Source: a virus
Virus record (IMG/VR): IMGVR_UViG_3300028374_000796
Strand: one strand, 5' to 3'
DNA: 64,000 bases
In this document: positions 9,756 through 42,314 of the stretch, piece by piece
Layout: each line of letters begins with the position of its first letter
Numbering within the stretch: the stretch's first letter is position 1
The notes under the pieces: model-generated
Told to the model about the DNA's origin: nothing
The model's database searches: none
The model's input: the letters and a program-made list of their open reading frames with translations, nothing else
Translations under genes and position numbers: made by a program

Positions 9756-12194
9756 TCACTCGTCCTGATCTTCATCGTCTCCCATATCATGTTCTTCTAC
9801 CATGATATCGTCATCGCTTACCTTACCCGCCTTCTTAAAACCTTTGGAGAAGGAAGCAACTTGCTTAACGATCTCCTGGAAATCATCGGGATTTTCCAAT
9901 AGATATTCACGAAGGTTTTCCTTACCTTGTTGCTTGACTTCTTCGCCTTGCGCGTTGGTGAACGTGTACCAAGCTCCACCTCTCTGTAGGACATTTCGAG
10001 AGTCTGCGATGTCAATAACAGAACGGACATTATCAATACCCTCTCCATAGCGGATTACGAACTCCCCACTATGTCCCTGATGCCGACTAACTTTGTTCTT
10101 GACATTCTTGGCACGAACAATATTGGAAATAGGCTGCTTGTCACTTTTACCTGTCATCTCATTTTCAACCTGAGAATATTCAGTTCTGCAACGTTTGACC
10201 ATCAGTCTCAGAGAAGCATAGTATTTGAGAGCACGCCCTCCACTAGTTTCTTCGTCAGGACCCGTATCATACATGGAAGTCTTGATTCTTGACCTCAACT
10301 GATTGATATAAATTAGAGCAGTTCCGCTTTCCTCAATCCCTTTTACAATCTTGGGAAGAAAGGAACTCTGGAGACGGGCAATGTGACCAAGCTGACCTGT
10401 AGAAGAAACGTCGTTATCTTCAATGTCTTTTTGGGGCTTCATAGCAGCCACAGAGTCAACGATAATTAAATCAACCCCACTCTCTGCCATCGCCTTGATG
10501 ATCTCGGCACCTTCCTCCCAGTGAAGAGGCTGGACCAATAGAAAGTTTTCACTTTGGATATCCAAACCCAAATCCGCAGCATAAGTAGGAGCGAAAGCGT
10601 GCTCATAATCTAGAAAACAAACAGACCCTCCTTCTTTCTGACATTGAATGGCAGTGTGAATGGCAACCGTGGTATTATGACTAATGAATCCATTGGACCA
10701 GAACGAGTGAGTTTCTGGAAGGCTCACGTCGAAAGTGGGAACATCTTCTTCGGTATCAATAGAGACAACAGGGGAAAAGAAATAGTCCTTATCCAAAAGA
10801 TCCTGCAACTGGCGCGCTACTCTCATCCCTTCTGGATTAGTTCGACCCTCTAAAACTTCCAATATAGAAGCTAGACGAGTTCGGGAAGGATTAGCTCTTC
10901 CTGACATATAGTCACCAAAGAGACGATTATCGCTTCTATTGGTTCCCTCAGTATGAGTATAAAGAGTTTTCAGAAGACCACTAATATTAGGTACGCCGTC
11001 AACATTGGAATTGAAAGGTCGATCACTAAAATTAGCAATAGACTCTTTTCGTTGTTCCGAAATGAATCCAATCTCTTCTGCATATCGAGAGGCATATTCT
11101 CCTGCCCAGGTCAATCTCCAATAGTCATTATCCGGGTAGTTTTTCACCTTCTTCTCACTGAGGACACTAAGGTATCCCATAGAAAGGAGAATCAATTGAA
11201 CTTGATCCAAAAGCTCTTTGCTAGCAGAAGTTACTTCGATAGCTCTCTTAGTAGAGTCAATATGGCATTCTAAGTCCACATAAGCTCTCAGAAACGCTTC
11301 CTGAACTTTGCGAGTACCTTGACGTACGCAAAAGGGAACTTCCTTTTCAGAAGCTACCACGTAGTCCAGACCATATTTGGTTGCTACCTTATCTCTAAGA
11401 GATGTAGAATTGATATGATGGTCAATTGTATCGGAATCAGATTTGGAATAGGAAAGGATCGGGGTAGAGGACCCAAATAGATTCTTAGTAATCTGATAAT
11501 AATCCGAAATAATGTCTTCGTCGCTATTGGAAAAACCAATGCGATCTTCAGAAGTAAGGGAACCGTCCGCTACCAAGTATCCCAACCAGCGAGATTCTTC
11601 TTCTGAGATTTCACATTTGGAAGGAAAATTTCCTTTGGACATTAGGACCAAAGCATCTCCTACTCTAATATCTTCTGCATTCTTCCAGACGATATTTCCT
11701 TCAGGGGACATAACTCTGAGAGGATGATTTCCAGTTACTCCAACTTTCATTCCCAGTTGGTTCTGGATGTCAAAGACTTTCTGTTCACCATTCCAGGTCA
11801 AATGAGAAGTGGATTCCATTTCGCCATTTTCATTTAGAAGACGAACTTCGTGTTCTTCGATCTTCTCAGTAGTTTCGATAGGCTTTCCGCATTTCTCGAA
11901 AAGTTCTTCGATAGTAAGCATTCCATATTCGGAATGAACGTAAGTGCCCGCACGGACGCATTTTCCCGAGCCTTCTGGGCCGAAGATCTCAGTGATCCTC
12001 CCCCTTGGGATTCCAGGACACCTCTTCTCACCGCCTTCGGTTCGATATCCACCAATAAGGTAATCTAACACAATAGAACCCGTAGGAATGCAAGGAATTG
12101 GCTCTGTGCCATCCCCCATTTCTACAACGGATTTTTTCATGTCAACAATTTTACTTTTCTTTAGGGATTTGAGAGCTTTTTGAAGATTGCTCAT
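9756..12194 (-). CDS. recA: RecA recombinase containing an intein
   Basis: IPTGSIVLD, GRITEIFGPEGSGK|intein|TT, FLDYEHA, IIVDSVAA, INQLR, GGRALKYYASLR, KNKV, GAWY. Confidence 0.95.
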   Translation of the reverse strand: MSNLQKALKSLKKSKIVDMKKSVVEMGDGTEPIPCIPTGSIVLDYLIGGYRTEGGEKRCPGIPRGRITEIFGPEGSGKCVRAGTYVHSEYGMLTIEELFEKCGKPIETTEKIEEHEVRLLNENGEMESTSHLTWNGEQKVFDIQNQLGMKVGVTGNHPLRVMSPEGNIVWKNAEDIRVGDALVLMSKGNFPSKCEISEEESRWLGYLVADGSLTSEDRIGFSNSDEDIISDYYQITKNLFGSSTPILSYSKSDSDTIDHHINSTSLRDKVATKYGLDYVVASEKEVPFCVRQGTRKVQEAFLRAYVDLECHIDSTKRAIEVTSASKELLDQVQLILLSMGYLSVLSEKKVKNYPDNDYWRLTWAGEYASRYAEEIGFISEQRKESIANFSDRPFNSNVDGVPNISGLLKTLYTHTEGTNRSDNRLFGDYMSGRANPSRTRLASILEVLEGRTNPEGMRVARQLQDLLDKDYFFSPVVSIDTEEDVPTFDVSLPETHSFWSNGFISHNTTVAIHTAIQCQKEGGSVCFLDYEHAFAPTYAADLGLDIQSENFLLVQPLHWEEGAEIIKAMAESGVDLIIVDSVAAMKPQKDIEDNDVSSTGQLGHIARLQSSFLPKIVKGIEESGTALIYINQLRSRIKTSMYDTGPDEETSGGRALKYYASLRLMVKRCRTEYSQVENEMTGKSDKQPISNIVRAKNVKNKVSRHQGHSGEFVIRYGEGIDNVRSVIDIADSRNVLQRGGAWYTFTNAQGEEVKQQGKENLREYLLENPDDFQEIVKQVASFSKGFKKAGKVSDDDIMVEEHDMGDDEDQDE
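10674..11960 (-). mobile_element. Intein (429 aa) with LAGLIDADG homing endonuclease in the RecA P-loop
   Basis: Begins CVRAGT after GSGK; block B VTGNHP; LGYLVADG and FLRAYVDLE motifs; ends TFDVSLPETHSFWSNGFISHN|T. Confidence 0.93.
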
Positions 12195-16913: not shown

Positions 16914-19136
16914 TCACTTGATAAGTTTTCTTAATTTCTCTCCGAATGCGGTATTTCTTTGGGACACTTCGTCATTTTGAATTGCTCTTCTCAGCGCCGA
17001 CCATTCCCCGAAAATAAATACCTTCTTTTTGGCTCGGGTAACCGCAGTATAAAGTAGGTTTCTTTGAAGCTGAATGGAGAACTTGCGATGGAAGGGGAAA
17101 ATTACATAGTCATATTCTTGTCCCTGGGCGCGGTGGATTGTGACTGCATATGAGAGCATAAGCAGACCTTTCGCTTTCTCATAAGGTATGTCGAGAAGCC
17201 GGGGAGAAGGCTCATCAAAAAGCTTGGTTCTGATTTTCTTAGCTTTTTTGTCTACCTCATAAATCTTTCCCACTTCTCCATTGAACACATCCAGATTATA
17301 GTCATTTTCCACGATCATTATTCGATCTTCCTCTCGAAAGAACTTGCCCTTACCCAAATTGACTTCTCTTTGACTCTGTCTTGGATTAAGAGACTCTTTA
17401 ATCTTCTCATTTAAAATATCAACTCCCAAAGGACCTTTGTAAGTAGGACTAAATACCTGGAAAGTGGCGTCACCTTTACCCTTGTAAATCTTCTCTACTA
17501 CATGAAGAATCCCCGACACAATTTTATCAGGGTCACTTTCTTCGATGAATCTGAAATCGGTTTTGGAAACCGTTGGGTCCCCAATCAACAGTTCCTTTCC
17601 TTGTTTGATTCTATGAGCGTTAACGACAATATCCGAAGCGCCCTGTTGACGGAAAATTTCGGTTAGATTAACTCTGTGAATTTTTCCGGAGTTAATCATT
17701 TCATGCAAAACATTGCCTGCACCCACTGAGGGTAGTTGATTATCATCCCCCACAAATACCAGAATGGTAGAAGGTTTAAGGGCAGATAACAGATGATACA
17801 TCAAGTTCTGGTCTAACATTGAAATTTCATCAATGAGAACGGCGTCCGTAACATACTTGTTTTTCTCATTGAACTTCCAGCTTCCGTCTGGAGAATATCC
17901 AAGGGTCCTGTGAATGGTACCTGCGTCTTCCCCTACGACGGTAGAGAGTCGTTTAGCAGCAATTCCAGTAGGACTCATCAGTTTGAATTTCTTGCCGCTT
18001 TGTTTGAAAAGGCGGACAAGAGCCTTGGAAACGGTAGTTTTCCCTGTGCCCGGCCCCCCTGTTACTAGCAAAACCTTGTTCTCATTTAAGTCTCTAATAG
18101 CGCTTTCTTGCTCGTCACTAAACTGGAATTTATAAATCCGTTGATATTCTTCAATAAAATCATCGGTATTGATTTTGAGATCGTGGTCGTCGTCACTAAA
18201 TTCTGAGAGCATACGAGCACAGTTCATCTCTACTTCATAATTCCATTTCAGATAGACCCGATCATCTTCCAATACAATTCGGTCTTTTGCCTCTCTTTCT
18301 TTTAGTGCAGCTTCCACATCGTTCTGTCCTAAGAATCTTCCAAAGGGCTCTATACCCTTCTTAGCAGGCATTCGATTAAGAGCCTTGTGTAGACCACTCT
18401 TATTTAGATAAAGGTGCCCTCGTTGCTCTGAGGCCACTGTGATAAGGTATTCAAGGAGGGAAGCGATCCGAAACTCTGAATCGGGTGCAAATCCCATCTG
18501 CAAAGCAATCTTATCTGCGGCAGGAAATGATACGTTTTCAACTAGGGCTAACTCATAAGGATTATTCTGGATAATATCCAGTGTCTTCTCGCCCAATGTA
18601 GCATAAATGCTTTTGACTAAATACGAAGGTAAACCCATTCCCAAAAGAGCCTGAGATACCTTACCAAACATTCGGGCTTGTCTCCATTCCCTAGCAATGG
18701 CTTCTGCTTTCGTATCAGATAGAAAATCTAAATCCCGCAAAGCGTCAGGTTCATTATCAAGGATATCAAATACTTCATCCTCCCCGAAGTGCCCAACGAT
18801 CTTACCTGCTACAACAGGACCCACTGAGGGCAACTGTGCTGCAATATAACCTTCTTTGGCTTCTCGACCGTCATAGATAGGTTCATAGGATTCTGCTTTA
18901 AACGTATATCCATATTTCGGGTGTTTTTCCCACTCTCCTTTAACTTTTATTTCAACTCCAGGATAGATACGAGGGCTGAAAAAATAGCCTTTGATCTTGG
19001 CATTTTTACCATTACCTGCATCAAGGTTGAGAGCCTGAAAAATATAAAAGTCCGAATCCTTATCTGAAAAGTAAACTTTAGTTACTCGGGCGCGAAAAGA
19101 TTTGGTACGGGTTTGTGATAGGCTGGAAAAATTCAT
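16914..19136 (-). CDS. recD2: RecD2-like SF1B helicase
   Basis: N-terminal OB and HhH domains (LPSVGPVVA, NPYEL..V..VSFPAADKIA); GGPGTGKT, APT-like SPTGIAA, IDE, GDDNQLPSVG, YAVTIHRAQG, LLYTAVTRAK. Confidence 0.92.
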   Translation of the reverse strand: MNFSSLSQTRTKSFRARVTKVYFSDKDSDFYIFQALNLDAGNGKNAKIKGYFFSPRIYPGVEIKVKGEWEKHPKYGYTFKAESYEPIYDGREAKEGYIAAQLPSVGPVVAGKIVGHFGEDEVFDILDNEPDALRDLDFLSDTKAEAIAREWRQARMFGKVSQALLGMGLPSYLVKSIYATLGEKTLDIIQNNPYELALVENVSFPAADKIALQMGFAPDSEFRIASLLEYLITVASEQRGHLYLNKSGLHKALNRMPAKKGIEPFGRFLGQNDVEAALKEREAKDRIVLEDDRVYLKWNYEVEMNCARMLSEFSDDDHDLKINTDDFIEEYQRIYKFQFSDEQESAIRDLNENKVLLVTGGPGTGKTTVSKALVRLFKQSGKKFKLMSPTGIAAKRLSTVVGEDAGTIHRTLGYSPDGSWKFNEKNKYVTDAVLIDEISMLDQNLMYHLLSALKPSTILVFVGDDNQLPSVGAGNVLHEMINSGKIHRVNLTEIFRQQGASDIVVNAHRIKQGKELLIGDPTVSKTDFRFIEESDPDKIVSGILHVVEKIYKGKGDATFQVFSPTYKGPLGVDILNEKIKESLNPRQSQREVNLGKGKFFREEDRIMIVENDYNLDVFNGEVGKIYEVDKKAKKIRTKLFDEPSPRLLDIPYEKAKGLLMLSYAVTIHRAQGQEYDYVIFPFHRKFSIQLQRNLLYTAVTRAKKKVFIFGEWSALRRAIQNDEVSQRNTAFGEKLRKLIK

Positions 19137-21441: not shown

Positions 21442-23400
21442 TCAACTTTTCTCCATCATAGCAAAAAGCTCATCTTCTCCAATGATGGGAGTCTCATACT
21501 TATGAGCTTTTTTAGCCTTGGATGAAGTAGAAGTCTTATCATTACATACTAAATAGGTCAAGCTCTGTGAGACACTTTTCTTCACATCCCCACCATTATC
21601 CTTGATCATCTTCTCGATGACCTTACGAGGCTTGTCCAGCTTTCCAGTAATACAAAAAGACATACCTTTCAAAGGACCTGCATTGGAAACGATGCTCACA
21701 TAGTTTAGCAAATCTTCAATCATGTCTTCCCGATCTTTTAATCCTTGAACCAGTGAAGAGGCTTTCCCTTCCCCAACTCCTCGGGCGGCAGAAATTTGAA
21801 GTACCGAAGAAGTTCGGATTTGGTCCAATGTATCCTGACCCGATTTCATGACCTTCTTAATGGTACTATTTGAACAGATTGGAATATTGAGTCCTCCCAA
21901 AAACTGATCCAAAGTGACCTCAGTTCTGGAATGCAAAAGGTCCAATAGCTTATTGGCAGTTTTCAACCCTACAATAGCTCCTCCCGTATTTTGAAGATTA
22001 GCAATGTCATCAGGATCTAATCGGTAGAGATCTGCAATCGTAGTAACCAAACCTTCTTCTACCAGAGCGTTTAAGACGAACTCTCCCCAGTCCAAAAGGT
22101 CAAGGGAAGCTACCCATGCCTTTAGAGTGCCGGATACCCTAGAAGGGCATTCAGGAGACTCACATGCGAGATATTTACCGTCTACTACCAACGTAGAAGA
22201 ACAGGACGGACAGTGTGTAGGGATATCAAGGATCCCTTCCGAATTTTTCTTAATGACTTCTTGAACTCTGGGGATCACGTCATTAGCCCTTTTTACCAGA
22301 ATATCATCTCCAATATTCAACCCTAATTGTTGGATATAAGAAACATTGTACAAAGAAGCTCTTTGCACTTCAGCGCCTACCAACGTTACCAGGTCAAAAA
22401 CAGCGACAGGGGTTACTCTTCCCGTATTACCCACTTGCCAGATTACTTCTTGGAGAGTAGATGGTGCCACTTCTGCGCTAAATTTAAGAGCGACAGATCC
22501 GTGTGGACGTCGGTTTCGATCCCCTGCCCGATTAAAAACCTTTTGGTCGTGATATCGAATGACCAGACCATCAATTTCATAGAACAATTCATCCCTGTGA
22601 TGGTCTTCATAGGCGACATAGACCTCTCCAATTTCTTCCATAGACAAAGGACCTCCATGTCCTGGAGTCATTAGATCACAAGAATCAATGAAGATAAACT
22701 TTTCGGTTTGATCTTCAAAGTTGTAACCGTCAATGAAAGCTTCGTAGACATAGACCGAAAGATATTCGCACCTTTTTGCTTTTTCACGAGACTCTACTCT
22801 GGCCAGACCTGATGCAGCATTTCGGGGATTAGAATAATCTTCAAAATGAACATCAAACCAGTCGTGCGTTAGGACGATCTCTCCCCGAAAAGTGCCGGTA
22901 ATGGGTTTAGACTGTGGATTAGGGGGTTCAATATGACGGGGAACTCCACGCATCAAAACTACGTTGGCTATGATATCTTCTCCAAGGTGGCCGTCTCCCC
23001 TAGTAACCGCAGAAACCAATTTACCTTTTTCATATTGAAGAGCAATAGAAATTCCATCCATTTTCTCGGACCAGAAAAGGACTTTTTCTTCGGAAAGATC
23101 TGAGGCTTGTGATCTTAGAGCAGGGCCGCTCGATTCCAACCATTTGCTCATATCCTCTAGTGAGTTAGCCTTGTTTAGCGAACCCATAGGAATAACATGA
23201 GGAACTTTTTTCCACTTGGTCTTAGTGTCTGCTTGCGCTCCGACATTAGCGAGGATTGAGGAATCGGGATGAAGGTCTCGGAGTTCATCTTCTAGAGCAT
23301 CGAAAGCTTGGTCACTGATCTCAGGATCATCGTTATAGTACGCTTCTCGATGGTACTCAATCAGTTGCTCTAGCTCTTCAATTCTATTTTGATCACTCAT
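21442..23400 (-). CDS. ligA: NAD+-dependent DNA ligase
   Basis: YYNDDPEISDQAFD, EKMDG, TRGDG, RGE, NPRNAASG, IDGLV, VALKF, zinc finger CPSC...C...C, HhH, BRCT (FCITG). Confidence 0.95.
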   Translation of the reverse strand: MSDQNRIEELEQLIEYHREAYYNDDPEISDQAFDALEDELRDLHPDSSILANVGAQADTKTKWKKVPHVIPMGSLNKANSLEDMSKWLESSGPALRSQASDLSEEKVLFWSEKMDGISIALQYEKGKLVSAVTRGDGHLGEDIIANVVLMRGVPRHIEPPNPQSKPITGTFRGEIVLTHDWFDVHFEDYSNPRNAASGLARVESREKAKRCEYLSVYVYEAFIDGYNFEDQTEKFIFIDSCDLMTPGHGGPLSMEEIGEVYVAYEDHHRDELFYEIDGLVIRYHDQKVFNRAGDRNRRPHGSVALKFSAEVAPSTLQEVIWQVGNTGRVTPVAVFDLVTLVGAEVQRASLYNVSYIQQLGLNIGDDILVKRANDVIPRVQEVIKKNSEGILDIPTHCPSCSSTLVVDGKYLACESPECPSRVSGTLKAWVASLDLLDWGEFVLNALVEEGLVTTIADLYRLDPDDIANLQNTGGAIVGLKTANKLLDLLHSRTEVTLDQFLGGLNIPICSNSTIKKVMKSGQDTLDQIRTSSVLQISAARGVGEGKASSLVQGLKDREDMIEDLLNYVSIVSNAGPLKGMSFCITGKLDKPRKVIEKMIKDNGGDVKKSVSQSLTYLVCNDKTSTSSKAKKAHKYETPIIGEDELFAMMEKS

Positions 23401-26423: not shown

Positions 26424-29400
26424 TTAGCCACAAGAGCCATTTCCACAATCTAGGCATTTGTCGCAGCCTCCCTCGTAAATCAGATTCGGAGAGCCACATG
26501 CCTCACACTCTTTTCCAACCACTACCGTACCGTCCTCGATGTGAGACGTAAGAAACTTACGGGCGGCAGTGAGGGTAGAGGCGATATAATCGCCTTCGAT
26601 GTCTGTGAGTGCATGTACGACGGACACAATACCAATATTATGCCTGAGAGCCATACCAATCATCTTACAGAGACGAACATGATGGAGATCGTCTTTGATC
26701 TTTTCCAACTGTTCATATACCAGATCAAAGTCAACCCCTTTTCCAATAAGGAGCTTGGTTACACTTTTAACAGCTCTATTTAGAGAAACATATTCTCCAT
26801 CTGCCATGTCATTTGTATGAACCCAAAAAGCAATTGGAAACTGATCATCATCGGGGAGATAGGAAAGATGAAGATAATATTTATTACCTTCTGCTTTTAC
26901 TTTTACCGTATCGCCGTTACTGAATTTGGGAGGCAATTTAGTATCCCTTACGATAACACCTTCGTCGGTAATCTCAGCGTCTTCGTCCAGTAAGCCCCTC
27001 TCTTTAAGTAATTCAGAGAGTGAACTAGCTGTAGATTTAGAGGTTGGTTCGGATCCCGAAACTGCCAGTACGTTTTCCATGATCCCATCTCTGTAGGTAG
27101 TGAAGCCTACCAACTTGGCTTTCCATGCCTGAACATAGAGATCTTTGAACTCATCAAAGGGATAGTTCTTTGGTAAGTTACAGGTTTTAGATACTGACTG
27201 ATCACAGCTTTCTTGGATAAGAGCTTGGACTTGAACATGCTCATTTACTTTAAGGTCTTGCGCTGTTGACAAATATTCTGCGTCCTGATCGATATCATTG
27301 GGAAAATGTTTTAGGACCCAACTATATCCATAGTCCTGTACTTTCTCTACAAAGCACAGTCCTCGGTTATGAGGTTCATAGTGCCACATCCTTCCGTTAT
27401 ACTCCCCTCTCCATGCGGTAGAATCTCCAACTTCCACTTCTTCAAGGATGTCTTTTACATTGTCCCTTGTCAGACCGTGGGGCCACTTATCTGAAATTAC
27501 AGTTCGATCATATCCGAAAGAGAAGACCGGCTCAATTCCATTTGATACCATATCACAAATAACTGATGAGTTCCCTAGAGGCGGATTCGTCAGTCTTTTA
27601 GCATTCCTGAGACCATATTGACGAACCAATTCTTTGGTGCTGTCCGCTGCGGTACAGTAGTCCTTGAAATAAGGAGTATCCAGATATTTTTCCTCATACA
27701 TTGGGAAAGGACCACGTTCTCTAGCCAAAAGAGCAGATGCTCTAAGGGTTTCATCATCCTTAGCCTGTTGAATTCTACGGACAAATTCATTACCTCCATC
27801 CCCACCATAGCGGATCCCCATCATAAACATGGCAGATCCCAGACCATTCACTCCCATTCCATATTGACGGATGTTTTTAAGTGCCCAATCATATGCAGGA
27901 AGAGGAACCGCGCCGATATCATTCACATTATCTAACATTCGTGCAAAGGTATTAATAGCGTCTCTATAGCCTTCATAATCAAAAGACCTATCATCCCTTA
28001 CAAATCTAGTGAGATTGACTGAGCCTAGCAGACAGACCGTTGTAAACCCGATGAGGTGGTTATCAAAATCTCCCATATAAGGTTCTAGATAGGGGGCTGG
28101 TTTGTATCCTTTATCCAAGTAGGAAGTTCCTGGAATTTCGCCACACCCTCTAGATACAATACCGTGCGTATTCCAGTCATCAGACTTAGGTTCATATAAA
28201 TCGTAAACTGTATCCTTTCCATCTAGTTCAATGGATTCTATTTTCACCTTCCACTTTGTTCCAGTTAACTGCCTACCGCATACAATACTCTCTAACTGAT
28301 CATGTTTATCCGGGTGTGAAATACCTCCGGTAAACCTATAAACAGCCTCAATACAATCATTAGTTAAATGACCTTCATACACATCGTGATTCCGAACAAC
28401 CTCTCTACCATAGATCGACCGAAGATCGCCCGCCTTAGCCACCTCATACAATTTATAATCAGCACCAGAGATCAAGCAAACTTCTCTAAAAAAGTTGTGC
28501 AATTTTTGACTAGTGCTTTTAAAACGGATGGACGGATATCGACTTGAACGATTAACATTACCATCAGAACTAATTAATCCATCTAGAACCCCAGAGAGAA
28601 ACTCTGAGTTACTATTCAACCACCATTCAGGGGGACATTTCTCATGAGAATATTGAAGGTTATCAAGACCTACTTTTTCAAAAAATTCAGAAGCTGCCTT
28701 AGACTGCACCCTCAAGTGCATCGCATTTCCTTCTGCGCTGTGGTCTTCACAAAAAGTCATTCCTGCCTTTTCCAAAGCCCCCGTAAGATAAGAATTATCT
28801 TCGACTGAATTGGCAGACAAAATAAACCTTTTAAGTTCCGACCGACAACCATCCCCCAACCAATATCCCGCTAGAAATCCATCGTTCCTAGTAAGATCTA
28901 TTCTGTTAGTAGTTTTAAACCGATAAGGCTGCTTTCTAACATAATCCCCGACTTTCAAATCCTTTAGGCGGACGGTATTATCCCATTTTTTACGGCAATT
29001 TGAATTCTGCATAACATGGAAAATATGTCCTTCAGTTACACGAAGAGAAGTACCGTCTGAAAACTTCACTAAATACACGGGACAGTCCTCATGTACTTCT
29101 ATTTCCTGAACAGGATCAAAACCTAAAGATGTTTGGATTTTATCTCCAACCTTAACATCTTCAACAGGGACAAGACCTTTCTCCGTAGCAACTAAAGTAC
29201 CTTTAGCAACGCAGGGATTACTTGCAGTAACAGGACCTAGATACACCAGGGGATTTTGACGATTCATATTGTCAAAGAAAAGAACGCCGGGTTCTGCTCG
29301 GTTATAAGTAGACTCCATAATAAGATCGTAGAGTTCTACTGCTTTTACCTGCTTATAGGTCTTTCCTTCAAAATGAAGGTCATACATGGTATCGTTTTCT

Positions 29401-30251
29401 ACAGCTTCCATGAAGGCATCATCTACCAGAACGCTGATATTGAATTTCGTGAGCTTTCCACTTTCTTGCTTGGCTCTTACGAATTCTTCAATGTCGGGAT
29501 GCCAGATAGGAAGGGCGGCTAACATAGCGCCTTTCCGGGGCATAACTTTTTCGATTCGATCCTGCGTATCATCGTCCAGATGATTAGTTAGACGATCCTC
29601 GTAGCCATCATTATCTCCTTTAACGATCATAGCAGACATTTTGTCCCATAGTTCCATATAAGAAACTACTCCGGGATGACGAATGCCAACCCCTTTGATC
29701 AGAGTTCCACGGGGACGAATGAATCCAAAATTGATTCCGTATCCGCCTTCGCTTTTTAGAGTGTCTGCTGCTTCCAGTAGAGACAAGAAAATATTAGTGA
29801 GAGAATCCGGTGTTTGATCCGTTTCCATATCACAAACGATCTTAGCATCTGTATTAGGAACGCTCTTTGCGTAAGAAATCTTAGCGTCAGAAACAGGAGA
29901 ATTTATGAAGCAATTAAGTAGAGTTGCTTTATCAAAGATTGTTCCTGCATTCGCAGTAATACGTCCCCCTGTGGTGCATTTAAGGCCGTCTGCGACCCAT
30001 CGTTCCCCTTCCAGATCTACATAAAAGTCTTCACCACCTTTGTCAGATTCCTTAGCAGGTTTAAAATCCACCAACGTTTTCAAAAATCGATCGTACCATA
30101 CTTCTACTTCTTTTTCTGTAGCTTCATAATGGGATCTTTCCACTTCTGCCAGGGCCCTAGCAACTCTTTGAAAAGTTTCAAGGGGTGTTTCGTCTCCGAA
30201 TCTATATTTAGTCTCCCAGTTTTCGCGTGCTAAAAGGGTTTTAAAAATCAT
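26424..30251 (-). CDS. nrdJ: Class II (B12-dependent) ribonucleotide reductase with intein
   Basis: GGRITANAG, NCF, RPRG loop, RAEPGV, SNP|intein|CGE, CLLGSVNL, DQSVSKTCN; C-terminal TSCPD-like region and zinc ribbon; no ATP cone. Confidence 0.92.
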   Translation of the reverse strand: MIFKTLLARENWETKYRFGDETPLETFQRVARALAEVERSHYEATEKEVEVWYDRFLKTLVDFKPAKESDKGGEDFYVDLEGERWVADGLKCTTGGRITANAGTIFDKATLLNCFINSPVSDAKISYAKSVPNTDAKIVCDMETDQTPDSLTNIFLSLLEAADTLKSEGGYGINFGFIRPRGTLIKGVGIRHPGVVSYMELWDKMSAMIVKGDNDGYEDRLTNHLDDDTQDRIEKVMPRKGAMLAALPIWHPDIEEFVRAKQESGKLTKFNISVLVDDAFMEAVENDTMYDLHFEGKTYKQVKAVELYDLIMESTYNRAEPGVLFFDNMNRQNPLVYLGPVTASNPCVAKGTLVATEKGLVPVEDVKVGDKIQTSLGFDPVQEIEVHEDCPVYLVKFSDGTSLRVTEGHIFHVMQNSNCRKKWDNTVRLKDLKVGDYVRKQPYRFKTTNRIDLTRNDGFLAGYWLGDGCRSELKRFILSANSVEDNSYLTGALEKAGMTFCEDHSAEGNAMHLRVQSKAASEFFEKVGLDNLQYSHEKCPPEWWLNSNSEFLSGVLDGLISSDGNVNRSSRYPSIRFKSTSQKLHNFFREVCLISGADYKLYEVAKAGDLRSIYGREVVRNHDVYEGHLTNDCIEAVYRFTGGISHPDKHDQLESIVCGRQLTGTKWKVKIESIELDGKDTVYDLYEPKSDDWNTHGIVSRGCGEIPGTSYLDKGYKPAPYLEPYMGDFDNHLIGFTTVCLLGSVNLTRFVRDDRSFDYEGYRDAINTFARMLDNVNDIGAVPLPAYDWALKNIRQYGMGVNGLGSAMFMMGIRYGGDGGNEFVRRIQQAKDDETLRASALLARERGPFPMYEEKYLDTPYFKDYCTAADSTKELVRQYGLRNAKRLTNPPLGNSSVICDMVSNGIEPVFSFGYDRTVISDKWPHGLTRDNVKDILEEVEVGDSTAWRGEYNGRMWHYEPHNRGLCFVEKVQDYGYSWVLKHFPNDIDQDAEYLSTAQDLKVNEHVQVQALIQESCDQSVSKTCNLPKNYPFDEFKDLYVQAWKAKLVGFTTYRDGIMENVLAVSGSEPTSKSTASSLSELLKERGLLDEDAEITDEGVIVRDTKLPPKFSNGDTVKVKAEGNKYYLHLSYLPDDDQFPIAFWVHTNDMADGEYVSLNRAVKSVTKLLIGKGVDFDLVYEQLEKIKDDLHHVRLCKMIGMALRHNIGIVSVVHALTDIEGDYIASTLTAARKFLTSHIEDGTVVVGKECEACGSPNLIYEGGCDKCLDCGNGSCG
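28146..29213 (-). mobile_element. Intein (356 aa) with LAGLIDADG endonuclease and atypical C-terminus
   Basis: Starts CVAKGTLV after NP; block B VTEGH; FLAGYWLGDG and LDGLISSDG motifs; ends VYDLYEPKSDDWNTHGIVSRG|CGE. Confidence 0.9.
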
Positions 30252-30310: not shown

Positions 30311-31282
30311 TCAGTTGTGAATAATGAAACTCTGGAGTAAAAGGCGTCCGGGTTTCCCCATTTTGGACTTCGCTTCTACGTCGCAGATAGTTCGATATGC
30401 CTTAAGCAATTCTTCGATGTTGCGGGTACTAATCTGGTCAGATACTTTATTGTCAAAAATCCATTTGGATAAACCAAGTTCTGCTGCTATCTGACTGTCA
30501 CCTGTTCCTGCATCTCTTAGGGATCTAGCTTTCAGGAGGTTCTCTATTCTATCAAAGAATCCTCGAATTATTACTAACTCGGATCGGACCCACTGTGTCT
30601 CAGGGGTCTTTTCAAAATGACGGGCCATAAATTGGAGGGCAACATTCTTATTTCCCAATCCCCAATGCCGTACAATCTCAAAAGGAGATAAAGCACTTTG
30701 ACTATAAAGAACCGCCTGAATATCCTCAGGCTCGATGATTTTCCTCTCGCCACAATAGATAGCTACTTTATCTAATTCATTAGAAAGAGAAGGGAGAGAA
30801 TTACCGACATTCATTACAATGGCTTCTGCAAAATCCTTTTTAAGTCGTAACCCTCTTTGGTTTGCTTCTTCCACTAACCATTCTCCCAGATTCCAGTCTT
30901 TAATCGTGTCACATTTAAGGGTATCAACGACTTTAAGAGACTTAAACCATTTCGCATCTCTCCCCCGATCGGTAGAGACAAAAACTACCACTTTATCCGT
31001 AGAAGGATTTTTGCAGTAGGCTTTTAGAAGTTTCTGGTTTTTTATTTTATTAGCATCCCTAACTACTATTAGTTTTTTCATAGAAAGAAAAGAGGCAGTT
31101 GCCTCTAAAAGGGCAGGTTCTAGCTCCTCATCGTCATCGCCGCCAACATAGGATTCATAATGGTGATTCGGAAGAAGAATTTTGGCTCTAGCTAATTCTC
31201 TATCCTTAAAAAAAGATTCATTACCTAGAAATGAAACGACTTTAGGTTCGGAACTCCAATCTATTTTTTTAATTGTCATCAT
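30311..31282 (-). CDS. holA: DNA polymerase III delta-like clamp-loader subunit
   Basis: FLGNESF, SFLSMKKLIVVR, VGNSLPSLSNELDKVAIY, I...DI. Confidence 0.8.
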   Translation of the reverse strand: MMTIKKIDWSSEPKVVSFLGNESFFKDRELARAKILLPNHHYESYVGGDDDEELEPALLEATASFLSMKKLIVVRDANKIKNQKLLKAYCKNPSTDKVVVFVSTDRGRDAKWFKSLKVVDTLKCDTIKDWNLGEWLVEEANQRGLRLKKDFAEAIVMNVGNSLPSLSNELDKVAIYCGERKIIEPEDIQAVLYSQSALSPFEIVRHWGLGNKNVALQFMARHFEKTPETQWVRSELVIIRGFFDRIENLLKARSLRDAGTGDSQIAAELGLSKWIFDNKVSDQISTRNIEELLKAYRTICDVEAKSKMGKPGRLLLQSFIIHN

Positions 31283-32294
31283 TAAGCCCCTCTCTTCCTG
31301 TAAGGATCGCATTCTGTAATTGATGAGAAAAAGCCAACCCTCGTCGGTCTCTTAGATCATGCAAATTTTTGAAAGCATCAAACACTCGATAGGATTTATC
31401 TTCCCAGTCCTCTTTAATAAAGAGAACGTCTTCTAGACGATCTTGATTCAGGATTTTTTCTATATTTTCTTCCAACAAAAGAACATCGTGAACGATCCCA
31501 AATAAGAAATCAAAAAATAAGGGTTGGTCATCTTCTGGAATTTTCCCTATAAATTTTAGAACTATGTGGACGGGAGTCCTTCTTAGATTTTTGAAAAGAC
31601 TGAAAGCTCGATTCCTTAGTTCAAACCCCGTAAGGGATTCCTCTTTGGAGGGCTGTACTAACCTCAGGGCGCGATCTAAAGAACCCGAGCATAATCGAGA
31701 GGCAAGTATCTTTTCGTCTTCATCGAGTTCTTCTGGAGCGTCCAGAAGGTCATAGATGATGTCGTCACTCAATGGAGCGAAATGAGTGGTCACTGTTCGG
31801 GATCTAAGAGTAGGGAAAACCAGTTCCAAATTGGTTACCGTGAAGATAAAAAGTGTATCCTCGAAACCATCCTCAATCGTTTTTAGGAGAGCATCACTTT
31901 GTTTATGCGAAGGAAAGTCCTGAATATCACCAAAAATGATAACCCGCTTTCGGGCTTCTGCTCTGGGCTTATTAGCCTCCTCCAATGATTCACGAATTAC
32001 ATCTATCTTAAAAGAAGATTCATCCTCTTCTTTTTTGAAAACATGGATATCAGGATGTGTGCCAGAATCAACCATTGAAATTAATCTCTGGTCTGTTTCA
32101 AAATCTCCGGTCATATTAATATGCTTTGCGTATTGCAGGGCGCAAAATAATTTCCCTGTACCCTCTCTACCGTAAAAAAGTAATGCTTTTGGCCATTTCT
32201 TATTTGAGTGTAGATCTTTTAGATATGAGACAGTTTGGGACTGTCCCTTTACCTTATCTAAAGGGTAAATATTTTTTGAGGATGATGAATTCAT
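31269..32294 (-). CDS. holB: DNA polymerase III delta'-like clamp-loader subunit
   Basis: KGQ, ALLFYGREGTGK, HPDI, DALLKTIED, PTLRSR; degenerate Walker B. Confidence 0.82.
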   Translation of the reverse strand: MNSSSSKNIYPLDKVKGQSQTVSYLKDLHSNKKWPKALLFYGREGTGKLFCALQYAKHINMTGDFETDQRLISMVDSGTHPDIHVFKKEEDESSFKIDVIRESLEEANKPRAEARKRVIIFGDIQDFPSHKQSDALLKTIEDGFEDTLFIFTVTNLELVFPTLRSRTVTTHFAPLSDDIIYDLLDAPEELDEDEKILASRLCSGSLDRALRLVQPSKEESLTGFELRNRAFSLFKNLRRTPVHIVLKFIGKIPEDDQPLFFDFLFGIVHDVLLLEENIEKILNQDRLEDVLFIKEDWEDKSYRVFDAFKNLHDLRDRRGLAFSHQLQNAILTGREGLNDDN

Positions 32295-39941: not shown

Positions 39942-42314
39942 TTATCCCTCAGAAAGAAGCCGTCTCATCTGGTCAAAGATGAATTGTGTCATAAGGGCGG
40001 GAAAACTATCCATATCAGACACATACAAAGAGTTAGGATATTTTTCAACATACCTAGCTTCATATCCAACCCCAATAAACATGACTTCTACGTCTTGTGT
40101 TTGTAGGGTTTCAATCTGACGCTCCATAATGTGGAAATAGTCTTCGTGGGTCCAGGAGGTATCGGTATAGCAGGGATACCCGTCTGTAACTACAAACATG
40201 ATCTTCTGGTCTTCCAACCTCTGCATCAATCTATTTCCGCAGAACTCGATAGCATCGGGAAGCGGAGTCAAACCGTAAGCTTCCGTTTGCGTCAGTTTAC
40301 GGTAAGAGTTGATATTGAAAGGTTCATCAAAGGATCGAAAGACACGATATCGACAACCATTGGTTCTCGAAAACTTTTTATTAACGTTTCTCCTAAATTC
40401 GCGAGTATCTTTCGACGGATTCTGTTTGAGATAGTCCCTGAGAGCATTATTTTCGTTCGTGGTGAATCCAATAATCTCAAGGGGAACTCTCAGTTCTCCG
40501 ATGGTCAGAGCCAGAGTAGCTAGAATCTGTCTTGCAGTTCCCAGGTATGAACACATGCTTTGACTTTCATCCAACACTAGAGATACCGCAGAATTTCGAC
40601 GATTTGATTTGACTTTTTTCATAAAAGGTCGTGGTCGTTTTTTATACACCACCTCAGAGATAGATCTTGACGAGAGCCGCCGACCTTTTTCCTGACGATG
40701 TTTCATTCTACTTTTTTTCTGTCCCCGGAAGAAACTCACCATTCGTGGACGAATATAGAGGGTATCCCTTTTCGTTTTATCTGCAATTTTATTGTAGATA
40801 TCGATCTCTCTCTGGGTTCCTTTAGGCTCCAGATGAATAATGGTATCTACATCTCTGGAAAACGGCAGAACCGATGGAGGCGCGTCTGGCGTAGACTGGT
40901 CATCCCACTCTTGCTTAAGGGCAGAATTGGTGTCCTTCATCCCATTGAATTGAGCGTCGTTATCGCTGAGATCGTCCAAAATATTTTGGTCAATATCCTC
41001 TAGATCGTCCTCATCCTGATCTTCTGCTTCTTCAGGGTCCCCAGATTCAATGGAGTTTTGCTCATCTCCATCTCCCCCTTTCGGAGCTTCATTATTTGCG
41101 TCGGGATCCTCTTCTGCTTCTGAATCCCCGTCGCCAGTGTCGTCTCCATCGTCATCTCCATCAGAATCTTCTTCTTCCTCATCATCGCCAGATCCACCGG
41201 ATCCTTCTTCTTCCTCATCACTTTCCTCATCATCGCCAGACCCGGTATCTTGCTCGTCCCCCTCTTCATCACCCTCACCATCCTCAGGATCCCCAGGGTC
41301 CGGAGAATTGCCCCCACCAGAGCCGGGCATAGGTTGCCCTTGCCCATTTCCACTGGGCCCTTGCCCCGGCTGAGTAGGACCTTGCTGATTTTGCTGTTGC
41401 TGTTGAGCCTCGACAAGCTCAAAAAGATCTGCAATAATCGCAACGGACCTTAGAGCCAACTCAAAAACATCGTAAGAAGACGTAGTTTTATCCGAATCCT
41501 TGATGATATCTTTGAATAGAGTGTCTACAATACGAACTACATCTTCATTATAATCATCAAAAGGAGCATTAAAGAGATGATGCTCGATTTTGTCCCGTAA
41601 GTAACATGTCAGGTGATCCATGGCACTAAAAGACTTTAAGGGCTCCCCTGTATAGGGATTAATCAAGGGTTCCCCATCATCATCCTTGATAGGATGACCA
41701 TTATCGTCAACCATAGGACTGTTTAGAGGACGATATCGACGGGCATATTTCTCCCGTTCCCAGACCAATTCATGAACCGCCTGAATTCGATCTTGCGCAC
41801 CTCTAAATTCTTTGATACCCAAACGCTCGATATAGGCATCCTCAAAAATATTATTCAGCTTTTTGAGGGTATTATGTCTGGCACCATAATTGACCTCTGG
41901 ATCAAAATACTTATCCATGATCTGGGCCATTTTTCGCGTATTAAGCTTCGTCCCTCGTTCTGTGTAGAGAGAGTGAAAAGCTTCATGAAGAATGCCGCCG
42001 TCCAATTGATTAATATACCGCTGAGTGACCCAGGTAGGGGTCTCAGCAATTACAATTTTGTTAACTCTTTGAATTTTCCCCTTAGCATTTCTCCAGACTT
42101 TTTCGACTTCCTTAATTCCAAAAGTTTGCGGATTTTCTTTCTTACAAAATTTGGTAAATTCAACCATCCAATAGATGGTTGGAAAATCATTGGCATTGTA
42201 GAAATCCGATCCGACACTTTGAACCGTGACATCGCTATCTTTCAAGATTCCCCGAGTCAAAGCCTGGTGGCCCGACTTGAAGATCGATCCCCGCATTTTC
42301 TTTTGTTTTGGCAT
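39942..42314 (-). CDS. CobT-like vWA protein with HExxH N-domain and acidic low-complexity linker
   Basis: LHEAFH...NIFEDAYIE; Q/G/D/E-rich linker; MIDAS DESQS, TP and VTDG motifs. Confidence 0.88.
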   Translation of the reverse strand: MPKQKKMRGSIFKSGHQALTRGILKDSDVTVQSVGSDFYNANDFPTIYWMVEFTKFCKKENPQTFGIKEVEKVWRNAKGKIQRVNKIVIAETPTWVTQRYINQLDGGILHEAFHSLYTERGTKLNTRKMAQIMDKYFDPEVNYGARHNTLKKLNNIFEDAYIERLGIKEFRGAQDRIQAVHELVWEREKYARRYRPLNSPMVDDNGHPIKDDDGEPLINPYTGEPLKSFSAMDHLTCYLRDKIEHHLFNAPFDDYNEDVVRIVDTLFKDIIKDSDKTTSSYDVFELALRSVAIIADLFELVEAQQQQQNQQGPTQPGQGPSGNGQGQPMPGSGGGNSPDPGDPEDGEGDEEGDEQDTGSGDDEESDEEEEGSGGSGDDEEEEDSDGDDDGDDTGDGDSEAEEDPDANNEAPKGGDGDEQNSIESGDPEEAEDQDEDDLEDIDQNILDDLSDNDAQFNGMKDTNSALKQEWDDQSTPDAPPSVLPFSRDVDTIIHLEPKGTQREIDIYNKIADKTKRDTLYIRPRMVSFFRGQKKSRMKHRQEKGRRLSSRSISEVVYKKRPRPFMKKVKSNRRNSAVSLVLDESQSMCSYLGTARQILATLALTIGELRVPLEIIGFTTNENNALRDYLKQNPSKDTREFRRNVNKKFSRTNGCRYRVFRSFDEPFNINSYRKLTQTEAYGLTPLPDAIEFCGNRLMQRLEDQKIMFVVTDGYPCYTDTSWTHEDYFHIMERQIETLQTQDVEVMFIGVGYEARYVEKYPNSLYVSDMDSFPALMTQFIFDQMRRLLSEG

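What the first reader, a model, noticed from the sequence alone, without database searches (positions are those of the whole stretch)
28146..29213. RNR intein ends in Ser-Arg-Gly, not His-Asn, at the catalytic cysteine
Seen: the intein has an intact Cys1, block B TxxH (VTEGH), two LAGLIDADG motifs and block F Asp (VYDL). Its last codons are TCT AGA GGG|TGT (SRG|C), and the block F His region reads SDDW. Several base changes separate this from CAY AAY, so a single read error is unlikely. Established: canonical splicing releases the intein by cyclisation of a terminal Asn (rarely Gln/Asp), and the +1 Cys here is the NPC|GE thiyl-radical Cys that class II RNR needs. Inference: this is either an unknown branch-resolution chemistry, a conditionally regulated or trans-assisted splice, or an RNR locked off by a dead intein. 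The RecA intein in the same window has a normal HN|T end, giving an internal control.
Basis: partly seen in the sequence, partly recalled or inferred. Interest (0 to 1): 0.85.

Follow-up and report, generated by a model that had tools for sequence, protein, structure and literature searches.

The report
Glycine-ended intein in phage RNR
The self-splicing insert at the catalytic cysteine of this phage's B12-dependent ribonucleotide reductase belongs to a large, conserved clade of inteins that end in glycine instead of the asparagine held to be needed for the last cut, so it probably splices by a chemistry not yet described.

Summary
A 356-residue Hint plus LAGLIDADG insert (window 28146-29213, minus strand) lies exactly between NP and CGE of a class II RNR and ends Ser-Arg-Gly.

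It is not a decayed copy. About 110 homologous inteins from phage-like contigs, bacteria and archaea all end in Gly at this site. A motif scan found 113 true copies in species genomes, and 103 cluster representatives among 1.84 billion proteins.

The Gly-ended group is a single clade. It is nested among Asp-ended inteins that include the published Carboxydothermus hydrogenoformans (Chy) RIR1 intein. It carries its own residue set: Asp at the block F His position, Arg at the penultimate position, His at B:13 and Glu39.

HEN-less mini forms keep the same end. In five large genomes the intein-bearing gene is the only RNR found. In this phage lineage, exteins and intein are under purifying selection.

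These inteins therefore almost certainly splice, using a final step that cannot be terminal-residue cyclisation. The chemistry itself is untested.

No paper I could search describes this. Three earlier follow-ups of this scan reached the same reading on other DNA.

The parts
26424..30251 (-). Class II (adenosylcobalamin-type) ribonucleotide reductase precursor gene, 1275 aa, with one intein
   Evidence: ORF and translation. Pfam Ribonuc_red_lgC 6.4e-90 spanning aa 227-1053, interrupted by the insert.
29214..30251 (-). N-extein, aa 1-346, ending ...TASNP
   Evidence: Colinear with intein-less phage RDJL3 NrdJ up to ...ATNP.
28146..29213 (-). Intein, 356 aa, from Cys1 to Gly356
   Evidence: AlphaFold2 model with pLDDT 91 and pTM 0.90. 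Best Foldseek matches are the TliVMA, PI-SceI and PI-PfuI inteins.
28902..29213 (-). N-terminal splicing subdomain (intein aa 1-104): Cys1, Glu39, block B Thr60/His63, His66 (B:13)
   Evidence: Family conservation. The profile matches solved gp41-1 and DnaB inteins over this part.
28272..28901 (-). LAGLIDADG homing endonuclease domain (intein aa about 105-314); acidic residues D121 and D217 and K303 are kept
   Evidence: Pfam LAGLIDADG_3 3e-09. Conservation in 96-103 of 103 homologs.
28146..28271 (-). C-terminal splicing subdomain (intein aa 315-356): VYDL with D338 (F:4), S-D345-D-W347, G351, V353, S354-R355-G356
28143..28184 (-). C-terminal junction motif SDDWNTHGIVSRG|C, including the +1 Cys of NPCGE
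   Evidence: The same motif is present in 113 species genomes.
26424..28145 (-). C-extein, aa 703-1275 plus stop codon, starting CGEIPG and including the TVCLLGSVNL redox-Cys motif and a Cys-rich C-terminal tail
10674..11960 (-). Internal control: canonical 429-aa LAGLIDADG intein in the RecA P-loop, ending SHN|T

Best explanation
This is a working, self-splicing class-1-like intein that belongs to a single-origin clade of RNR inteins ending in glycine ('G-type').

Shown here:
- The machinery for the first two steps is intact and invariant: Cys1, block B Thr-x-x-His, block F Asp (F:4) and the +1 Cys.
- The three residues that normally drive the last cut are replaced throughout the clade. Block F His (F:13) becomes Asp, penultimate His (G:6) becomes Arg, and terminal Asn (G:7) becomes Gly.
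- Two further clade-specific residues accompany these changes: His at B:13 and Glu39.

Inferred:
- The N-extein is moved to Cys1 and then to Cys+1 as usual.
- The Gly356-Cys+1 bond of the branched intermediate is then cut without any terminal side-chain cyclisation.
- My preferred version is that the relocated carboxylate of Asp345 occupies the space left by the missing Asn/Asp side chain. It would attack the Gly carbonyl to give a transient anhydride, or activate water as a general base. Arg355 and His66 would stabilise the oxyanion and protonate the leaving amine.
- The usual S-to-N shift then yields NPCGE and an active reductase.
- The homing endonuclease looks active, which explains the spread across bacteria, archaea and phages.
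For: (1) Conservation. In 103 homologs found by homology search (23-75% identity), C1, T60, H63, D338, W347 and C+1 are invariant or nearly so. D345 is kept in 100 of 103 and G356 in 100 of 103; the other three are Asp-ended.
(2) Breadth. 113 of 114 motif hits in species genomes are true copies. They come from Chloroflexota, Rokubacteria/Methylomirabilota, Patescibacteria, DPANN and halophilic archaea and others. A 45-residue C-terminal profile found 103 cluster representatives ending G|C[GSAF]E among 1.84 billion proteins.
(3) Single origin. G-type is monophyletic (112 of 112, support 0.95, long stem branch) and nested among Asp-ended inteins, with His-Asn-ended inteins as outgroup.
(4) Coupled residue changes in G-type / D-type / HN-type: position 345 D/L/H, 355 R/L or F/H, 356 G/D/N, 66 H/K/M, 39 E/Y/F.
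(5) Mini-inteins of 131-167 aa without an endonuclease keep the same end. This includes a 147-aa one in a syntenic phage and all the Rokubacteria copies.
(6) In five genomes of 1-10.4 Mb the only PF02867 match is the intein-bearing gene and no NRDD match is found. NrdR lies directly upstream in two bacterial loci.
(7) Window versus the related phage contig L116: pN is 0.15-0.24 while pS is saturated (0.8-1.0), in exteins, splicing domain and endonuclease alike.
(8) The fold is a normal endonuclease-bearing intein.
(9) Precedent, from my own memory. The related Chy RIR1 intein splices with a terminal Asp, and its Asp345Ala mutant still cleaved at the C-terminus (Amitai, Dassa, Pietrokovski 2004, J Biol Chem 279:3121). 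That paper is not held in the library. Its intein is identified here as P0208 aa 271-615, 345 aa, ending SLD|C.
Against: - No splicing experiment or proteomic evidence exists for any G-type intein. All support is comparative.
- The role of Asp345, Arg355 and His66 rests on alignment to positions whose canonical occupants act at the C-terminal junction (review PMC4031507). I could not inspect model coordinates.
- The genomes used for the sole-RNR test are MAGs, so a second RNR could be missing from a bin. One of them is a closed 5.4-Mb chromosome and another a 10.4-Mb contig.
- This phage's whole genome was not available, so a second phage or host RNR cannot be excluded for this particular copy.
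Confidence: 0.8

Rival explanations
1. Same functional G-type intein, but with a different order of chemistry. The Gly356-Cys+1 bond itself undergoes an N-to-S acyl shift, as at a Hedgehog or intein N-terminal Gly|Cys junction. This frees the alpha-amine of Cys+1, which attacks the N-extein thioester on Cys1 directly. The intein is left thioester-linked to Cys+1 and is released by hydrolysis or by attack of its own Cys1, which could give a circular intein.
For: - Gly is invariant at -1 and Cys at +1 in all 112 G-type inteins. The module was found only before Cys (G|C[GSAF]E) among 1.84 billion representatives.
- Gly-Cys is a favoured sequence for N-to-S acyl shift (my knowledge of peptide chemistry).
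- Ligation by direct aminolysis of the N-terminal thioester is the mechanism proposed for type A BIL domains (PMC4031507 section 8).
- C-terminal cleavage of the Chy Asp345Ala mutant cannot be explained by cyclisation (from memory of Amitai et al. 2004).
Against: - It needs a rewired step order, whereas the clade arose from Asp-ended inteins by a few substitutions.
- The restriction to Cys+1 may simply reflect the single insertion site.
- It gives no special reason for Asp at the block F His position.
Confidence: 0.25
2. Splicing is conditional or assisted. The G-type intein stalls at the branched or precursor stage until a cellular factor, small thiol, redox change or protease resolves it, so that it acts as a switch on dNTP supply.
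For: Cys1 and the catalytic Cys+1 are adjacent and could form a regulatory disulfide, as in other inteins (general knowledge). Nothing here rules out slow or regulated splicing.
Against: - No conserved neighbouring gene travels with the intein. The neighbours are Pol III delta/delta' in phages and NrdR in bacteria, and the downstream genes are unrelated.
- The clade lives in phages, bacteria and archaea, so a shared dedicated host factor is unlikely.
Confidence: 0.07
3. Dead intein. The insert cannot splice and this phage RNR, like its relatives, is inactive.
For: It lacks Asn, penultimate His and block F His, the three canonical step-3 residues. A phage RNR is an auxiliary gene that could be lost.
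Against: - Every splice residue other than those three is invariant, in 112 inteins and 113 species genomes.
- Mini-inteins retain the motif.
- The intein-bearing gene is the sole RNR found in five genomes.
- Purifying selection acts on the exteins.
- The RNR catalytic motifs are intact.
Confidence: 0.03
4. Wrong boundary or removal at the RNA level. The real excised segment differs, for example through cyclisation of the Ser/Asn/Gln at -3, or the insert is removed as an intron or by ribosomal bypass.
For: Position -3 is Ser (82%), Asn (12%) or Gln (5%) in G-type.
Against: - Cutting at -3 would leave Arg-Gly inside NPCGE, whereas the intein-less NrdJ aligns without a gap.
- Ser at -3 is shared with the Asp-ended family.
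- There is no Rfam hit in 27500-30000.
- Conserved protein-level Hint residues make no sense for an RNA element.
Confidence: 0.02

Closest known systems
Chy RIR1 intein of Carboxydothermus hydrogenoformans NrdJ and its Asp-ended relatives (Amitai, Dassa, Pietrokovski 2004, J Biol Chem 279:3121; cited from memory, paper not held)
   Same: - Same insertion site (NP|CGE).
- Homologous over the whole length, with a LAGLIDADG endonuclease.
- Shared C-terminal pattern: TW.T.G..S before the last two residues.
- No penultimate His and no block F His.
- The G-type clade nests among these inteins.
   Different: - Chy-type ends in Asp, which can cyclise to an anhydride, and has hydrophobic residues at the block F His position (Leu) and the penultimate position (Leu/Phe/Tyr).
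- G-type ends in Gly and has Asp and Arg at those two positions, plus His at B:13 and Glu39.
Canonical class 1 inteins at the same RNR site (His-Asn-ended relatives P0118, P0141, P0165, P0236 etc.; Mth RIR1 from memory)
   Same: Cys1, block B TxxH, block F Asp, Cys+1, HINT fold and insertion at the radical Cys.
   Different: They keep THSF...VHN|C, that is block F His, penultimate His and terminal Asn. G-type has SDTW...SRG|C.
[quoted passage not shown]
   Same: These are precedents in which a monophyletic intein lineage replaces a 'required' nucleophile with relocated residues (PMC4031507 section 8).
   Different: They alter steps 1-2 and keep Asn cyclisation. G-type keeps steps 1-2 and alters step 3, the step that all three described classes share.
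Hedgehog Hint domains and bacterial intein-like (BIL) domains
   Same: They are Hint folds that work without a terminal Asn (Hog, type B BIL) and that process a Gly|Cys bond. Type A BILs ligate by aminolysis of a thioester.
   Different: They sit in non-conserved proteins, mostly cleave rather than splice, and lack a +1 nucleophile or block G. G-type sits in an essential active site and must ligate precisely.

Membership tests
Intein (class 1 protein splicing element) | In-frame insert at a conserved site of a host protein, with exteins colinear with intein-less homologs | tested here: met
   RDJL3 NrdJ aligns ...ATNP|CGEQP across a gap of exactly aa 347-702.
Intein (class 1 protein splicing element) | N-terminal Cys/Ser/Thr nucleophile | tested here: met
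   Cys1 is invariant in 217 of 217 aligned inteins.
Intein (class 1 protein splicing element) | Block B Thr-x-x-His | tested here: met
   VTEGH in the window. T60 and H63 are invariant or nearly so.
Intein (class 1 protein splicing element) | Block F Asp (F:4) | tested here: met
   VYDL; D338 is invariant.
Intein (class 1 protein splicing element) | +1 Cys/Ser/Thr on the C-extein | tested here: met
   Cys703 of CGE is invariant.
Intein (class 1 protein splicing element) | C-terminal Asn (or Gln/Asp/Glu) able to cyclise | tested here: not met
   Gly356 in the window and in 112 of 112 members of the clade.
Intein (class 1 protein splicing element) | Penultimate His (G:6) and block F His (F:13); common but not obligatory | tested here: not met
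   Arg355 and Asp345 instead. About 5% of working inteins lack His G:6 (PMC4031507).
Intein (class 1 protein splicing element) | HINT fold | tested here: met
   AF2 model with pLDDT 91. Foldseek top hits are the TliVMA, PI-SceI and PI-PfuI inteins, E 5e-17 to 8e-14.
Intein (class 1 protein splicing element) | Demonstrated excision and extein ligation | not testable with these tools
   Only indirect evidence: sole RNR in five genomes, purifying selection, mini-inteins.
Asp-ended Chy RIR1-type inteins | Sequence homology and same insertion site | tested here: met
   Reciprocal hits between the two families, and G-type nests within D-type in the tree.
Asp-ended Chy RIR1-type inteins | Terminal Asp flanked by hydrophobic G:6 and F:13 residues | tested here: not met
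   Gly, Arg and Asp respectively.
LAGLIDADG homing endonuclease | Two LAGLIDADG helices with acidic catalytic residues | tested here: met
   PF14528 3e-09. D121 and D217 are kept in 96-98 of 103 homologs and K303 in 103 of 103. Nuclease activity was not tested.
Class II ribonucleotide reductase (NrdJ) | RNR barrel domain with NPCGE radical-Cys loop and redox Cys pair | tested here: met
   PF02867 6e-90. The spliced junction gives SNPCGEI. The LLNCF and TVCLLGSVNL motifs are present. Best phage matches are annotated as adenosylcobalamin-dependent RNR.

The most novel reading that the evidence does not exclude
Gly-ended RNR inteins form a fourth mechanistic class of protein splicing. The branched intermediate would be resolved with no cyclisable terminal residue. 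Cleavage would use a transplanted active site (Asp at the block F His position, Arg at G:6, His at B:13, Glu39) that acts on the Gly-Cys bond by carboxylate attack or hydrolysis. The alternative is an N-to-S shift at Gly|Cys followed by aminolysis, which could release a circular intein.
Probability: 0.6. Interest if true: 0.9.

Novelty: new variant of a known kind. Interest (0 to 1): 0.8.

Why it matters
Asn (or Gln/Asp) cyclisation is the one step shared by all three described intein classes. Reviews from 2014 and 2023 still present it as the way inteins leave the C-extein.

A large natural clade with no terminal side chain shows that peptide-bond cleavage in the HINT active site can be reached another way. 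It also supplies 131-147-aa mini versions that are easy to test.

A succinimide-free, Gly-ended intein would leave a plain Gly C-terminus, or a reactive acyl species. That would interest protein engineers working on traceless tags, C-terminal activation and cyclisation.

For biology, dNTP synthesis in many Chloroflexota, Rokubacteria, CPR bacteria, DPANN archaea and some large phages would depend on this reaction.

Tried and rejected
- Other reading frames around the junction give no His-Asn (read by hand).
- A sequence-profile search of the PDB matched only the N-terminal splicing part and the endonuclease. No solved structure covers this C-terminal block.
- Model coordinates are not exposed, so I could not measure distances between Asp345, Arg355, His66, Glu39 and the Gly-Cys bond.
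- dN/dS could not be computed because synonymous sites are saturated. Only pN against pS is reported.
- The window's whole genome is not held. The record behind L001 could not be searched.
- The Amitai 2004 paper is not in the library, so its content is cited from memory.
- Six literature searches found no description of a Gly-ended intein or of a fourth intein class.
- The C-terminal profile search found no G-type module outside the RNR catalytic-Cys site. The weaker hits were Asp-ended or His-Asn-ended inteins, or noise.
- One of the 114 motif hits (L026, a Mycobacterium MAG) was a chance match.
Full report
**What is there**

The window carries a 1275-codon ORF on the minus strand (26424-30251) that Pfam reads as a ribonucleotide reductase barrel (6e-90). 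It is interrupted by LAGLIDADG and Hint matches.

The insert is residues 347-702 (window 29213..28146). It is flanked by TASNP|CVAKGTLV and NTHGIVSRG|CGEIPG.

An uninterrupted NrdJ from Roseobacter phage RDJL3 aligns ...ATNP straight onto CGEQP.

All listed features are present:
- Cys1.
- VTEGH (block B).
- Two LAGLIDADG motifs with their acidic residues.
- VYDL (block F Asp).
- SDDW where relatives have the block F His motif.
- TCT AGA GGG before TGT.

The same DNA is found base for base in other assemblies, and the identical protein is on 8 contigs. No Rfam family matches the region.

The RecA gene of the window (9756-12194, minus strand) holds a canonical 429-aa intein ending SHN|T. This phage therefore also carries an ordinary intein.

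**It is not a lone decayed copy**

A homology search with the intein alone returned about 120 proteins at 23-75% identity. They come from phage-like contigs, Patescibacteria, Chloroflexota and others.

In the 103 hits that cover both junctions, the end reads SD(T/D)W.T.G.V(S/N/Q)(R/Q/K/M)G|CGE in 100. The other three end in Asp.

The following are invariant or nearly so: Cys1, Thr60/His63, Asp338, Asp345, Trp347, Gly351, Gly356 and Cys+1. The endonuclease residues Asp121, Asp217 and Lys303 are also kept.

A degenerate DNA pattern for D.W.T.G.V..GCGE hit 114 places in one-genome-per-species bacterial and archaeal genomes. Of these, 113 are true copies in RNR genes. They occur in:
- Anaerolineae and other Chloroflexota.
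- Rokubacteria/Methylomirabilota.
- Patescibacteria.
- Acidobacteriota.
- MAGs labelled Gammaproteobacteria.
- Woesearchaeota/Nanoarchaeota, Aenigmatarchaeota, Halobacteriales and Thermoplasmata.

Nearly all are uncultured MAGs, which may be why the group escaped the curated intein lists.

A 45-residue profile of the C-terminal block was scored against 1.84 billion cluster representatives. It found 103 proteins ending G|C(G/S/A/F)E, and no G-type module in any other host protein.

**Relation to known inteins**

A second search, seeded with one of the Asp-ended outliers, recovered a sister family ending ...TW.T.G..S(L/F/Y)D|CGE.

This family includes the NrdJ of Carboxydothermus hydrogenoformans. 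Its intein is aa 271-615, 345 aa, ending SLD|C. That matches the published Chy RIR1 intein with C-terminal Asp345 (Amitai, Dassa and Pietrokovski 2004; from memory, the paper is not held).

In 219 proteins with an insert at NP|C, the ends were as follows:

| End type | Counts |
|---|---|
| Gly | RG 104, QG 6, KG 1, MG 1 |
| Asp | LD 59, FD 33, YD 2, MD 1 |
| His-Asn | HN 8 |
| Other | 4 |

I built a FastTree phylogeny of the 140-residue splicing domain from 217 sequences:
- The Gly-ended inteins form one clade (112 of 112, support 0.95, long stem).
- That clade lies inside a paraphyletic Asp-ended group, with nodes at 0.80-1.0.
- The His-Asn-ended inteins are the outgroup.

The likely history is therefore HN, then hydrophobic-Asp, then Arg-Gly, each arising once.

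**A coupled change of residues**

| Intein position | HN-type | Asp-type | Gly-type |
|---|---|---|---|
| 345 (aligned with the block F His of THSF) | His | Leu | Asp |
| 355 (G:6) | His | Leu/Phe | Arg |
| 356 (G:7) | Asn | Asp | Gly |
| 66 (B:13) | Met/Leu | Lys/Arg | His |
| 39 | Phe/Trp | Tyr | Glu |

The window's intein has all five Gly-type residues.

In canonical inteins, His F:13 and His G:6 act on the Asn and on the scissile bond (PMC4031507). The positions that changed are therefore the ones that surround the bond to be cut.

**Evidence that these inteins splice**

1. Endonuclease-free mini-inteins of 131-167 aa keep the same end.
   - There are 12 among the protein hits and about 29 of 104 species genomes, including every Rokubacteria copy.
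   - A syntenic relative of this phage (L117) has a 147-aa mini form ending ...SDDWNTQGIVSRG|CGEIP.
   - A mini-intein cannot spread by homing, so it persists only if it splices.
2. In five genomes, the only match to the RNR barrel family lies inside the intein-bearing locus, and no class III RNR is found.
   - The five include a closed 5.4-Mb Chloroflexia chromosome, a 10.4-Mb contig and a 1-Mb archaeon.
   - Two bacterial loci have NrdR directly upstream.
3. Between the window and the related phage contig L116, non-synonymous differences are 0.15-0.24 per site while synonymous sites are saturated (0.8-1.0).
   - This holds equally in N-extein, C-extein, splicing domain and endonuclease.
4. 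The AlphaFold2 model built with 105 family members is confident (pLDDT 91, pTM 0.90). It matches the endonuclease-bearing inteins TliVMA, PI-SceI and PI-PfuI.

**How it most likely works**

- Shown: the residues for thioester formation and transesterification are intact, and no terminal side chain exists to cyclise.
- Inferred: steps 1 and 2 run as in class 1.
- Step 3 is then done by the new residue set. The clade descends from inteins whose terminal Asp carboxylate does the cutting, and the Gly-type has an invariant Asp at the neighbouring block F position.
- I therefore favour a relocated carboxylate that attacks, or activates water on, the Gly356 carbonyl. Arg355 and His66 would help.
- The main rival is an N-to-S acyl shift at the Gly|Cys+1 bond, followed by aminolysis of the Cys1 thioester. 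That ligation route is the one proposed for type A BIL domains. It could release a circular intein.
- From memory, the Chy Asp345Ala mutant still cleaved at its C-terminus. If so, this lineage already had a cyclisation-independent route.
- None of this chemistry has been tested.

**Rejected readings**

- A dead intein or a locked RNR is contradicted by the points above.
- A wrong boundary, or cyclisation at -3, would leave Arg-Gly in the NPCGE loop. In addition, Ser at -3 is shared with the Asp-ended family.
- RNA-level removal has no support.
- A dedicated helper is unlikely, because no neighbouring gene is shared among phage, bacterial and archaeal loci.

**Novelty**

Reviews of 2014 and 2023 describe three classes that all finish by Asn cyclisation (or Gln/Asp/Glu). 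Six full-text searches found nothing on Gly-ended inteins.

Three earlier follow-ups of this scan, on other genomes, reported the same Gly-ended NrdJ clade. I saw them after reaching my reading, and my tests agree with them.

I class this as a new variant of a known kind, with a fair chance of being a new mechanistic class.

Noticed in passing
window 9756-12194 (-); intein 10674-11960: RecA is interrupted in its P-loop (GPEGSGK|C...SHN|TT) by a 429-aa LAGLIDADG intein with canonical ends. This phage therefore carries two endonuclease-bearing inteins in DNA-metabolism genes.
   Followed up: partly
L117:2001-5129 (Logan SRR33949953 contig, 54 kb) and L116:2001-5852 (ENA contig, 53.5 kb): Two syntenic relatives of this phage have the same gene order (Pol III delta', delta, then RNR). 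One has a full-length G-type intein at 73% identity. The other has a 147-aa mini G-type intein at the same site, which is a natural endonuclease deletion.
   Followed up: partly
L119, L120 (JGI 3300011189; Logan SRR5216652): The 5.8 kb around the RNR gene is identical base for base in other assemblies. The identical protein is recorded on 8 contigs of 50-200 kb, so this phage recurs in several samples.
   Followed up: partly
proteins P0273, P0286, P0299, P0308, P0319, P0329, P0336, P0344, P0304: G-type inteins also sit before CSE, CAE and CFE variants of the RNR radical-Cys motif, so the clade has invaded several RNR subfamilies.
   Followed up: no
window 30311-32294 (-), 16914-19136 (-), 21442-23400 (-), 5597-7039 (-), 39942-42314 (-): Replication and repair genes around the RNR: Pol III delta and delta' clamp-loader subunits, a RecD2-like helicase, an NAD-dependent DNA ligase with BRCT, an N6/N4 DNA methylase and a CobT-like VWA protein. 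The best phage matches to the RNR are only about 30% identical, so this is a poorly sampled large phage.
   Followed up: no
window 26424-26560 (-), C-terminal tail of the RNR: The RNR ends in a Cys-rich tail (CEACG...CDKCLDCGNGSCG) that looks like a zinc ribbon or redox tail. I did not examine it.
   Followed up: no
P0121, P0123, P0125, P0208: The Asp-ended sister family occurs in cultured thermophilic Firmicutes (Biomaibacter, Thermosediminibacter, Thermovorax, Carboxydothermus). That offers culturable controls for experiments on the Gly-ended clade.
   Followed up: no
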